This document shows, one piece after another, positions 30,555-35,480 of a stretch of 64,000 nucleotides of DNA. Position 1 is the first letter of the stretch, and each line of letters begins with the position of its first letter. The stretch lies in the NCBI RefSeq assembly GCF_009914755.1, contig NC_060945.1. One strand, given 5' to 3'. Under the pieces are notes generated by a model, which was not told the origin of the DNA, did not search any database, and was given only the letters and a program-made list of their open reading frames with translations. The position numbers and the translations under genes were made by a program. The DNA is from the human T2T-CHM13v2.0 reference genome, Homo sapiens.

Positions 30555-31890
30555 GACTCTGTTAAATGAAAAAGCCTCCGTACATCATTATTCTTGTAAC
30601 AAATCACATCCAATTTACAAGTGTTCTGTAAATTCTGGAGAAACAGAGGCCCTGAAGTTATTCGTGAGCAAGTCTGGGAAATGGAAATGGAGGTTCCAAT
30701 TCCTGTTTTTACTAATTTAATGTGTATAAAATGTTATCTATATCTTTTCTTCATTCCTTTGTTCCTTCCTTTCTTTTGAGGGACTTTCATAGGTTCATTC
30801 AAGAGTTTTAACCCCTAACTCATTTTTCTCACAAGGCCTTAAATTCCACAACCTCATCATCTACCACCTTTGGTGCTTTCAGAATCATGACTCTCAATGT
30901 TGAAGAATGGGCTACTGCATGGAAGGTGGGTGCAAACCCCTAAAATTTCCACCCCTGGTTCTGGAAAGTGAGAAATTGGGGATTTCAATACTGCAAGCCA
31001 TCCTTCACATTCTAAACTCATTGTCTTTACTTAGTTCCGTCAGCATTTCTTTCTTCCAGTCAGTGGGGTATTGGCATGGACTTGTACTGGCTCATAAGAG
31101 CTGATTGGTAAGTTTTCAGGAATTTGCAAGCTGGTTGTTAAGCACAGTCATTATTGAAAGCAAATTATGTAAACTTACAATTAAATAAATTATATCAAAA
31201 CCAAAAATAATAAATACTCAGAACTTATCACTTCCTAATTATTTTACTTCACTTTACTATTATTCATGCTTTTGGGGTTAGTTGTGCCTGTTGTATAGGT
31301 AGGGTGGAAATACTATATAATGCTGCCCTATTGTATGTCTTTTCTCAACTCCATGTTCTCTTGGTAGCATGAAATTGGGTTATGGTGGCAGTATTTACAC
31401 CACTACATATCAGAGTGTGATTTATGATTTTGTTGAGTGTGATGGAGAAAATGTTAACGATGCAGATTAAACTTAAAAGTGTGTCATGTCCATAGCCCTT
31501 ACATTGTGAATAGTCCCCATACATGAGAAAATATTCCTCCAGTATTTGAAAACTATTATTTGATTCAGCAAAGAAGTTGCTTTCATCACTGACTAGCAAG
31601 TGACATTCTCACATATATCTTTGTTGTTTAACTTTCCTCTTACTTCTAACATAAATGAAAATCTCAACCAATATTTATACCAAAACTATACATGCTCATC
31701 AGTTGCAACCCTAGGTTGGCTTTGTGTACAAGAGTTTGGCAAAAATCAAAGCATTCTTTGAGAACTAATGATGTACAAAGAGTATATAATAAAGAGTAAT
31801 CTATAGTTTATTATCATTTGTAAATTGTGTGCTACACATTCTTTACATCCGTAAAATTGAAATAAACTATGTACATACATATCTGCGTAC

Positions 31891-32966
31891 TTTTTTGAAG
31901 ACTAAAGTGAAAGCAAGTTTATTAAGAAAGTAAAGGAATAAAAGAATGGCTACTCCATAGGCAGGGCAGCCCTGAGGGCTGCTGGTTGCCCATTTTTATG
32001 GTTATTTCTTGGTTATATGCTAAACAAGGGATGGGTTATTCATGAGTTTTCCGGAAATGGGTAGGGGGTGGGCAATTCCCAGAGCTGAGGATTCCTCCCC
32101 TTTCTAGACCATGTTGCCATGGCATTTGTAAACTGTCATGGCGCTGGTTGGAGTGTAGCAGTGAGGACGACCAGAGTTCACTTTCATCTCTATCTTGCTT
32201 TGGGTGGGTTATGGCTTCTTTACTGCAACCTGTTTTATCAGCAAGGTCTTTATGTCCTGCATTTTGTGCTGACCTCCTATCTTATCCTGTAACTAAGAAT
32301 GCCTAACCTGCTGGGAATGCAGGCCAGCAGGCCTCAGCCTTATTTTACCCAGCCTCTAAACAAGATGGAGTCGCTCTGGTTTAAACGCCTCTGACATTTC
32401 CCCGCTCCCTTTTATAAGAGAACCCTTAATCCTAAGGGTCATAGAGAGATGAAGGTCCATCTTTTGTAACTTCTGGAGGCTGAATGAGGTGATGATATTC
32501 CTGCCTATCTATTAGGGTCTCAGATCCAGGGTAGAGAGGAGTTCAGTCAGAGAAAGTCCGTATGGTGAGGGCCATTCATAACTCTGACTAAAAGTGATAT
32601 AACTAGTTTCCAGATTTTGGAGAAATTAGATAGAGAGAAACAAGCATGCTTCAAATTTTGTTCACAGGAGCGTAATTTATGCAATTGTTGAAAGCTGTCA
32701 ATAGCTCAAAAGAAAGGTTTCCTTGACTCCAAAGTCAGCCAATCAGTGTTGGTCTATTTCCTTTGGGTCAGGGGTCTCCTTAGTATCATCCCTTTGTGGT
32801 TGCCATAAAGATGTTACCAGAAAGGGGTCCTAAACCAGACCCCAAAGAGGGTTCTTGGATCTCACATAAGAAAGAATTCAAGGCGAGTCCGTAGAGTAAA
32901 GTGAAAGCAAGTTTATTAACAAAGTAAAGGAATAAAAGCATGGCTACTGCATAGGCAGAGCAGCCC
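31891..32966 (-). mobile_element. MER41 ERV1 processed RNA copy: R-U5 (32966-32812), PBS (32805-32789), about 400 bp internal, PPT (32414-32397), U3-R (32396-31897), A tail
   Basis: LTR start TGTCAGAGGCGTTT. 70-bp R repeat at 31903-31972 and 32897-32966. PBS TGGCAACCACAAAGGGA (tRNA-Arg type). PPT AAAAGGGAGCGGGGAAA. Confidence 0.85.
32912..32917 (-). terminator. Candidate distal EPCIP poly(A) signal (AATAAA) in the MER41 R region, followed by U5
   Basis: AATAAA on the minus strand about 3.07 kb downstream of the EPCIP stop, in a sense-oriented LTR R-U5 context. Confidence 0.5.
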
Positions 32967-34119
32967 ACCTCCCTTTTTTGTTGGAGAGCTGCTGGTTAAA
33001 CTTTTGTTAGCACACCACTGGCCAGAGGCAATAAGCTACTAGCCCCAGGCCAGATGGCTACCATTAACATAGTTTGTTTGACCCACATGATATTATTTAA
33101 AACAAACAAACAAAAAAGCTGAATGGCAAGCCGACATTTACAAATTGTGAGAATTCACATAACAACCTGGAATTCCTCATTCTCTGAAGGATCAGATCTG
33201 GCCCCATCAGATTTTCCCATGGCAACACTCAGTTGGAGCTGAGCCACTGTAGAGCTTCAGGTGGGGCATGCACCCTTACTTAACCACCATCCCACCACTC
33301 CCTGTTGTCCCCCAAACCCTGCAGCTAAGTGCCAAATGCCATTAATCCCCATGCCTGCACTGTGGATTTTCTCTGCCCATTCTTCATCCCACAGCAGCAC
33401 AAACTGAACCATATTTTTAGTCCAGAAATCTGAAACCTCAGGCTTGATTTATAACTAAATTAGCTTTCCTTTTCTGTTGGTTTAAGTCCCATTAACTCAC
33501 AAGTATTTCTCAAAAGACTTACTTAAAACATATGTGAAAGGGCTTTGAAACTATTAAAAGCTACCAAATGGAAGATATTTATAGGAGGCATATACTTTCT
33601 ATCATCATTTAATTTTATACTTTATTAATAAAAATTATTAAAATTCAATTTGTTATATTTTCAGTAACTAATGACAATGAATATATTACTAATCTTTTCA
33701 CTTGTCTTTTCTTGCTTTCCTTTTTCCTCCTTTTTCCCCTTTTCCTTATTTTTTCTTTCACTTTAACATTATCTGCAGTACAATGTCAGTAATGAGGTCA
33801 CATTTTTCTATTAAAATTCATACTTTGGTCTTTGTTTTGGCCTAATTTAAACACTGACATGGGCTCATGCTAATTAGCCTGAATGGCTAAATCCCCCACC
33901 AATTAAGCAAATGTAGAAATTGCAGATTATTTCAGTTACTCTATGTTAAGGTTAAGTGAAAAAAAAAAAAAAGTGATGTATGTGATCTAAAGTCATCAAC
34001 CCCAGGATATCCTGTTAAGTCATGGACTATTTCTTATCATTATGGTATCATGAATGCAATAATGTTTCAAATTCATTCCACTCCAGGTTTAGACATTTGT
34101 ATCACAATTGCAGTGGATT

Positions 34120-35124: not shown

Positions 35125-35480
35125 ATTTTATTATTATTATTTTTTTTTTTTTTGAGATGGAGTTTCGCTCTTGTTGCCCAGGCTGGAGTGCAATGGTGTG
35201 ATCTCTGACTCTGTCACCCAGGCTGGAGTGTAGAGTGCAGTGGCACGATTTTGGCTCACTGCAACCTCCGCCTCCCAGGTTCAAGCGATTCTCCTGCTCA
35301 GCCTCCGAGTAGCTGGGATTACAGGCATGTGCCACCATGCCCGGCTAATTTTGTATTTTTAGTAGAGATGGGGTTTCTCCATGTTGGTCAGGCTGGTCTT
35401 GAACTCCCGACCTCAGGTGATCCGCCCGCCTCGGCCTCCCAAAGTGCTGGGATTACAGGTGTGAGCCACTGTGCCCGACC
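35125..35480 (-). mobile_element. AluSp-like element with an internal duplicated patch, in the inferred EPCIP 3'UTR
   Basis: Alu consensus with an extra segment at about 35205-35240. Confidence 0.88.

What the first reader, a model, noticed from the sequence alone, without database searches (positions are those of the whole stretch)
31891..32966. Spliced, polyadenylated MER41 endogenous-retrovirus RNA retrocopied into a DNA transposon
Seen (minus strand): the element is R-U5-PBS-about 400 bp-PPT-U3-R-A6, which is RNA-genome layout rather than provirus layout. The 70-bp R is repeated with 4 mismatches. The 5' end (32966) corresponds to a point 27 nt downstream of the U3 TATA-like ATAAAAA (31999), the expected TSS. 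The 3' end stops about 20 nt after AATAAA at an A run. From my recollection of MER4-group internal consensus, the discontinuities at 32729/32728 (actttgg|agtcaagg) and 32601/32600 (aactagtt|atatcac) fall where GTAAGT/GTGAGT donors and a ttccag acceptor lie. Inference: a doubly spliced subgenomic ERV RNA was reverse-transcribed in trans by L1 machinery, as known for HERV-W processed pseudogenes, preserving a fossil of the extinct virus's splicing pattern. I could not resolve a clear TSD.
Basis: partly seen in the sequence, partly recalled or inferred. Interest (0 to 1): 0.75.

Follow-up and report, generated by a model that had tools for sequence, protein, structure and literature searches.

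The report
Spliced MER41 retrovirus RNA retrocopy family
This 1-kb human sequence has the exact layout of a twice-spliced RNA from the MER41 endogenous retrovirus, likely pasted back into the genome by LINE-1 enzymes; at least 16 other spliced copies exist elsewhere in the genome, and this one likely supplies the far end-signal of the EPCIP gene.

Summary
Confirmed and widened. Minus strand 32966-31903 reads R-U5-PBS-415 bp-PPT-U3-R, with no 5' U3 and no 3' U5. A 7-8 bp target duplication exists; the 'A6 tail' lies inside it, so no separate poly(A) is left. The element is not a one-off. The best hits hold 17 distinct spliced insertions (window included) in at least 7 splice forms, two others with the same two junctions, and 6 of 9 sisters with both ends held show an A tail plus target duplication. 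Splicing goes with loss of U3 (0 of 7 versus 17 of 23, p=8e-4). The RefSeq end of EPCIP (32897) falls on the poly(A) site of the 5' R. The mechanism is known from HERV-W, which a 2017 review calls the sole L1-mobilised HERV group. I found no paper on MER41 retrocopies, but could not read Dfam or Pavlicek 2002. LINE-1 as agent and EPCIP use are inferred.

The parts
32973..32980 (-). 5' copy of the target-site duplication (CAAAAAAG, 8 bp; 7 bp if the C is coincidental)
   Evidence: empty-site context in other transposon copies
32967..32972 (-). six extra bases matching neither U3 nor the target
32897..32966 (-). 5' R (70 nt), AATAAA at 32917-32912; its end equals the RefSeq 3' end of EPCIP (32897)
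   Evidence: RefSeq end taken from the hub's gene table
32812..32896 (-). U5 (85 nt), ends in CA
   Evidence: matches the U5 of proviral 3' LTRs
32788..32805 (-). primer-binding site (starts TGG); tRNA not tested
32729..32966 (-). exon 1 (238 nt), ends at the major donor D1
32601..32728 (-). exon 2 (128 nt), acceptor A1 to donor D2
32397..32600 (-). interior part of the last exon (204 nt) from acceptor A3, with PPT at 32413-32397
31973..32396 (-). U3 (424 nt), MER41B-like, shorter than the 458-489 nt class; published MER41B-like motif at 32035-32010; STAT1 sites decayed; TATA-like box at 31999
31903..31972 (-). 3' R (70 nt), AATAAA at 31923-31918; no full U5 behind it
31890..31897 (-). 3' copy of the target-site duplication, holding the A6 run
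31061..33020 (+). host DNA transposon interrupted about 45 bp from its right end (MER63-like hAT element; the name is recalled); left end read by eye
   Evidence: 40 scored matches of 178 candidates; right ends of copies; left end, (the 4-mismatch search for the left inverted repeat found nothing)

Best explanation
The element is a DNA copy of a twice-spliced MER41 RNA that starts at R and ends just past R, likely written into a T-run of an old DNA transposon by LINE-1 reverse transcriptase in the germ line of an early simian. Shown: RNA layout, four GT/AG edges, a target duplication, and many sister copies in several splice forms. Inferred: a MER41B-type provirus was transcribed from its 5' LTR; the host spliceosome removed introns of about 2.6-3.5 kb and 0.93-0.95 kb; the RNA was polyadenylated at the 3' R; L1 ORF2p primed on the T-run; the tail was short or later lost. 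The copy has no promoter in front and no long reading frame, so it is predicted to be inert as a virus. Its 5' R-U5 keeps a whole poly(A) signal in the same direction as EPCIP and likely became that gene's distal 3' end.
For: Splice edges. Among the 30 loci, 7 have U3 upstream and none of them is spliced at D1; 23 lack U3 and 17 of them lack intron 1 (Fisher p=8.4e-4, or 1.9e-3 after dropping the window, one duplicate and one unverified acceptor). Among the 26 loci that hold exon 3, all 10 with U5 are unspliced at A3 and all 6 spliced at A3 lack U5; 7 more lack U5 and 3 are unresolved (p=0.019). A tail plus target duplication of about 8-18 bp in L034, L038, L015, L053, L035 and L050. L034 and L050 carry the same two junctions at unrelated sites. 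Every further junction that could be tested (exons X and Y) also lands on AG/GT. The EPCIP end lies 15 nt after the AATAAA, where the sisters' A tails begin.
Against: At this locus there is no A tail beyond the duplication, the duplication is short, the nick site reads TTTT/GT rather than TTTT/AA, and 6 bases at the 5' end are unexplained. Three of the 9 sisters with both ends held gave no clear duplication (L037, L059, L055). The loci are the top 30 of 40 scored out of 1424 and 2582 candidates, and both queries span junctions, so the counts are not genome-wide proportions. No orthologue, no Dfam alignment and no RNA data. EPCIP has upstream poly(A) hexamers at 35132, 34476, 34418, 33626 and 33613, so the retrocopy site may be a minor one.
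Confidence: 0.87

Rival explanations
1. The spliced RNA was copied into a DNA break without the L1 endonuclease (repair-type capture of cDNA, or annealing of the A tail to the T-run).
For: No separate tail, short duplication, off-consensus nick site and 6 extra 5' bases.
Against: A true duplication in a T-run is present; the sisters show ordinary L1 marks; tails shrink over tens of millions of years (own knowledge).
Confidence: 0.08
2. The spliced RNA kept PBS and PPT, was reverse-transcribed by a retroviral enzyme into a short provirus with two full LTRs, and later lost U3 and U5.
For: PBS and PPT survive. A precedent is proposed for the HML-2 locus ERVK-17 (PMC3590776, passages).
Against: Both losses would have to fall on the R boundaries and inside a target duplication; 0 of 7 U3-bearing and 0 of 10 U5-bearing copies are spliced at the adjacent site; class I ERV duplications are 4 bp (PMC11905727 Table 1).
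Confidence: 0.03
3. The gaps are ordinary DNA deletions in a decayed or non-autonomous provirus.
For: Recurrent interior deletions are common in ERVs (PMC5016936, passages).
Against: Four of four edges lie at GT/AG (about 1.5e-5 for the dinucleotides alone, my arithmetic); the same donor is joined to at least five different acceptors in different copies.
Confidence: 0.02

Closest known systems
HERV-W processed pseudogenes (PMC5016936 and PMC5537654, passages; Pavlicek 2002 not held)
   Same: R-U5 start, U3-R end, A tail and 5-15 bp target duplication; family-wide. MER41 is filed in the same HERVW9 supergroup (PMC5753468 Table 4; PMC4724089; passages).
   Different: Different LTR and interior family. 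Most hits here are spliced, in at least 7 forms with short non-coding exons; the word 'spliced' does not occur in PMC5016936. PMC5537654 calls HERV-W the sole HERV group mobilised by L1, which these copies contradict.
HML-2 rec-mRNA retrocopy at 2q32.1 (PMC3590776, passages)
   Same: Doubly spliced ERV mRNA with a short A stretch and a target duplication, ascribed to L1.
   Different: A single class II locus with a 136-aa frame. Here it is a class I family with many copies and no stop-free stretch over 81 aa on the sense strand.
Retrotransposed spliced HERV-H copies (Goodchild 1995; seen only as cited in PMC3590776)
   Same: Spliced ERV RNA re-inserted in the genome.
   Different: From memory those keep full LTRs (not checked); the MER41 spliced copies seen here have none.
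MER41B LTR as STAT1 enhancer (PMC2897888, passages)
   Same: The published MER41B-like motif matches 23 of 26 at 32035-32010.
   Different: No intact TTCNNNGAA site is left in this U3; sisters L034 and L035 keep the 21-bp tandem.

Membership tests
L1-processed ERV pseudogene (HERV-W type, features from PMC5537654) | 5' LTR cut to R-U5 | tested here: met
   U3 alignment score 35 upstream versus 277-469 in proviral copies; start 27 nt after the TATA-like box
L1-processed ERV pseudogene (HERV-W type, features from PMC5537654) | 3' LTR cut to U3-R | tested here: met
   U5 score 16 versus 85-115 in proviral copies; only 6 U5-like bases remain
L1-processed ERV pseudogene (HERV-W type, features from PMC5537654) | poly(A) tail | tested here: inconclusive
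   A6 lies inside the duplication; clear tails in sisters such as L034 and L053
L1-processed ERV pseudogene (HERV-W type, features from PMC5537654) | 5-15 nt target duplication | tested here: met
   7-8 bp; consistent with empty transposon copies
L1-processed ERV pseudogene (HERV-W type, features from PMC5537654) | TT/AAAA insertion motif | tested here: inconclusive
   reads AC/AAAA today; the A run is present, the two bases before it are off-consensus
Spliced transcript | missing stretches bounded by GT...AG in unspliced copies | tested here: met
   12 of 13, 13 of 14, 15 of 18 and 19 of 20
MER41 (B-type LTR) | published MER41B-like U3 motif | tested here: met
   23 of 26; 0 matches in 100 shuffles
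MER41 (B-type LTR) | tandem STAT1 sites 21 bp apart | tested here: not met
   decayed at this locus; present in sisters L034, L035 and L028. This lowers the subtype call, not the family call
MER41 (B-type LTR) | best match to the Dfam MER41B and MER41-int models | not testable with these tools
   no repeat library held; the interior label is recalled
Two-LTR provirus | full U3-R-U5 at both ends and a 4-bp duplication | tested here: not met

The most novel reading that the evidence does not exclude
MER41 is a second ERV family, beside HERV-W, that spread on a large scale as LINE-1 passenger RNA. Its retrocopies form an undescribed fossil transcriptome of simian germ cells about 40 million years ago, with one major donor, at least five acceptors and several short non-coding exons. 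A sizeable share of annotated MER41 LTRs with interior sequence would then be retrocopies carrying U3 enhancers and R-U5 poly(A) signals to new sites, one of which now ends EPCIP.
Probability: 0.55. Interest if true: 0.72.

Novelty: new member of a known kind. Interest (0 to 1): 0.57.

Why it matters
It contradicts the printed claim that only HERV-W was mobilised by L1 as a group, and gives a second family with which to ask what makes an ERV RNA an L1 substrate, a question PMC5537654 lists as open. MER41 LTRs are a main source of interferon- and placenta-responsive enhancers, so a second route of spread changes how their copies are counted and dated. The retrocopies map the start site, poly(A) site and splice forms of a long-dead element to the base. 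One copy appears to set the 3' end of a human protein-coding gene.

Tried and rejected
An 18-base pattern across junction 2 with one mismatch gave 69 hits against 72 for the reversed control; of the 30 loci cut, only the window itself was MER41, so it is useless for counting. A 121-base junction-2 query found only the window and L034 spanning the junction among 40 scored of 522 candidates. A junction-1 query found 12 spanning matches among 40 scored of 362; one (C5:123.37 Mb) was new and, like two listed earlier (C10:104.4, C1:214.8 Mb), was not read and is not counted. A tree of 30 U5-leader pieces was star-like (21 of 27 branches open; retrocopy label not clustered, 220 of 500 shuffles as low) and cannot name a source provirus. 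R-versus-R divergence (4 of 70) is too short to date. No long reading frame in the element; the frames in the start of intron 1 of L041 were not searched against protein families, so what the introns encode is untested. The acceptor used by L060 is not in any held unspliced stretch. No target duplication was seen for the host DNA transposon. Six D1-unspliced copies that start at R (L036, L040, L041, L047, L051, L057) were seen at the 5' end only. Literature: nine full-text searches listed no paper on MER41 retrocopies or on a C21orf62/EPCIP poly(A) site from a repeat. Pavlicek 2002 and Chuong 2016 are not held, and no supplements were read; a supplement or Dfam note could already record this.

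Full report
Observation. On the minus strand the stretch 32966-31903 reads R (70 nt), U5 (85 nt), primer-binding site, 415 bp of interior, polypurine tract, U3 (424 nt) and R again. The two R copies differ at 4 of 70 positions, and the 3' R begins 27 nt after a TATA-like box at 31999. There is no U3 in the 1.5 kb upstream (score 35 against 277-469 for proviral copies) and no U5 downstream (score 16 against 85-115). This is the layout of the RNA, not of a provirus.

Splice sites. After exon 1 (ends 32729), 12 of 13 unspliced copies continue with GT, 11 with GTAAGT (two rows were read from the shifted part of the alignment). Before exon 2 (starts 32728), 13 of 14 have a pyrimidine tract ending in CAG. 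After exon 2 (ends 32601), 15 of 18 continue with GT. Before exon 3 (starts 32600), 19 of 20 have AG (two rows needed a small shift, checked). Intron 2 is 0.93-0.95 kb in most copies. Intron 1 is about 2.6 and 3.5 kb in two proviruses, from hit coordinates.

Insertion site. The element sits about 45 bp inside the right end of an old DNA transposon (40 scored matches of 178 candidates; the MER63/hAT label is recalled). Most of twelve other copies of that transposon have a T-run at the matching place. CAAAAAAG flanks the element on both sides (32980-32973 and 31897-31890), and removing the element with one copy restores the transposon's end. Six U5-like bases precede it and six unexplained bases lie at the 5' end. 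The nick site reads TTTT/GT, an imperfect L1 site. Taken alone, this locus has two of the four L1 marks clearly, plus the duplication, with tail and motif inconclusive.

A family. Of the 30 loci, 7 have U3 upstream and all 7 are unspliced at donor 1; 23 have none and 17 of these lack intron 1 (p=8.4e-4). Of the 26 loci holding exon 3, the 10 with U5 are all unspliced at the last acceptor, and the 6 spliced there all lack U5; 7 others lack U5 and 3 are unresolved. With L015, and counting the duplicated pair L044/L045 once, there are 17 distinct spliced insertions. Three have exons 1-2-3 (window, L034, L050). Three have exons 1-3 (L038, L015, L059). One each has 1-2-X-3 (L037), 1-Y-3 (L035), 1 joined to an upstream Y acceptor (L053) and 1 joined to X (L055). 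Six join exons 1-2, with intron 2 kept in five and not examined in L039. One joins an untested acceptor (L060). Exons X and Y are bounded by AG and GT in most unspliced copies. Of 9 sisters with both ends held, 6 have an A-rich tail and a duplication of about 8-18 bp; L037, L059 and L055 gave none. Copies without U5 come from both U3 length classes, about 390-400 and 458-489 nt, so more than one LTR subtype contributed. These counts come from ranked hits of junction-spanning queries and are not genome-wide proportions.

Family and age. A motif published as resembling MER41B (PMC2897888, passages and Table 1) matches at 32035-32010, 23 of 26 bases. The tandem STAT1 sites are decayed here but intact and 21 bp apart in L034 and L035. 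The median pairwise distance among 30 U5-leader pieces is 18%, roughly 40 million years at a neutral rate recalled as about 0.22% per million years. PMC11905727 (passages) places all MER41 subtypes in the simian ancestor. The tree is star-like and names no source.

EPCIP. The hub's gene table ends EPCIP NM_001162495.3 at 32897 on the minus strand. That base is 15 nt after the AATAAA of the 5' R (32917-32912) and is the point at which sister retrocopies begin their A tails. Only the 5' R has U5 behind it, which would supply the downstream element. The retrocopy therefore likely gave EPCIP its distal poly(A) site. Five other hexamers lie upstream in the 3' UTR, and I have no RNA data on how much each is used.

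Mechanism. Shown: RNA layout, splice edges, duplication, sisters with tails. Inferred: germ-line transcription of a MER41 provirus, host splicing, polyadenylation in the 3' R, and target-primed reverse transcription by L1 ORF2p. The spliced RNA has no stop-free stretch over 81 codons on its sense strand. The isoforms are best read as host processing of endogenous transcripts; whether they served the virus is unknown. Rivals are endonuclease-independent capture (0.08), retroviral reverse transcription with later truncation (0.03) and DNA deletion (0.02).

What is known. HERV-W processed pseudogenes have the same marks (PMC5016936, passages). PMC5537654 (abstract and passages) calls HERV-W the sole HERV group mobilised by L1 and says the determinants are unclear. 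PMC3590776 (passages) describes one doubly spliced HML-2 retrocopy and cites HERV-H cases. PMC4724089 (passages) says it did not separate processed pseudogenes from proviruses, and files MER41 in the HERVW9 supergroup, as does PMC5753468 (passages). PMC9604959 (passages) has a spliced env retrocopy in antelopes. PMC11359688 and the HERVarium preprint 10.64898/2026.02.17.706328 (passages) showed nothing on MER41 retrocopies. Nine searches listed no paper on MER41 retrocopies or on this EPCIP site. Pavlicek 2002, Dfam notes and supplements were not seen, so prior mention is not excluded.

Verdict. New member of a known kind; interest 0.57.

Noticed in passing
L034 about 2612-2900; also L018, L022, L039, L055: Antisense Alu-like insertions fall at the same T-rich spot of R, just upstream of the AATAAA, in five independent copies: an L1-endonuclease hot spot inside the MER41 R.
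   Followed up: no
L044 and L045 (G000:C23, 151.05 and 150.95 Mb): Two copies with the same flanks, about 100 kb apart in opposite orientation; one retrocopy duplicated with its surroundings.
   Followed up: partly
L050, between exon 2 and exon 3: An Alu-like insert sits at the exon 2-3 junction with the first bases of exon 3 duplicated, so it landed after the spliced copy was made.
   Followed up: partly
L016 2239-3152 and L049 2424-3239: A second MER41 LTR lies directly next to the first (tandem or nested LTRs).
   Followed up: no
window 33021-33121: The sequence right after the transposon's end looks by eye like the end of another short DNA transposon (recalled resemblance, no call tested it); it may explain why no target duplication is seen for the host element.
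   Followed up: no
window 31973-32396: The U3 lies in an intron of EPCIP-AS1 and about 0.5-0.9 kb past the EPCIP end; it is 35-65 nt shorter than its class and has lost intact STAT1 sites.
   Followed up: partly
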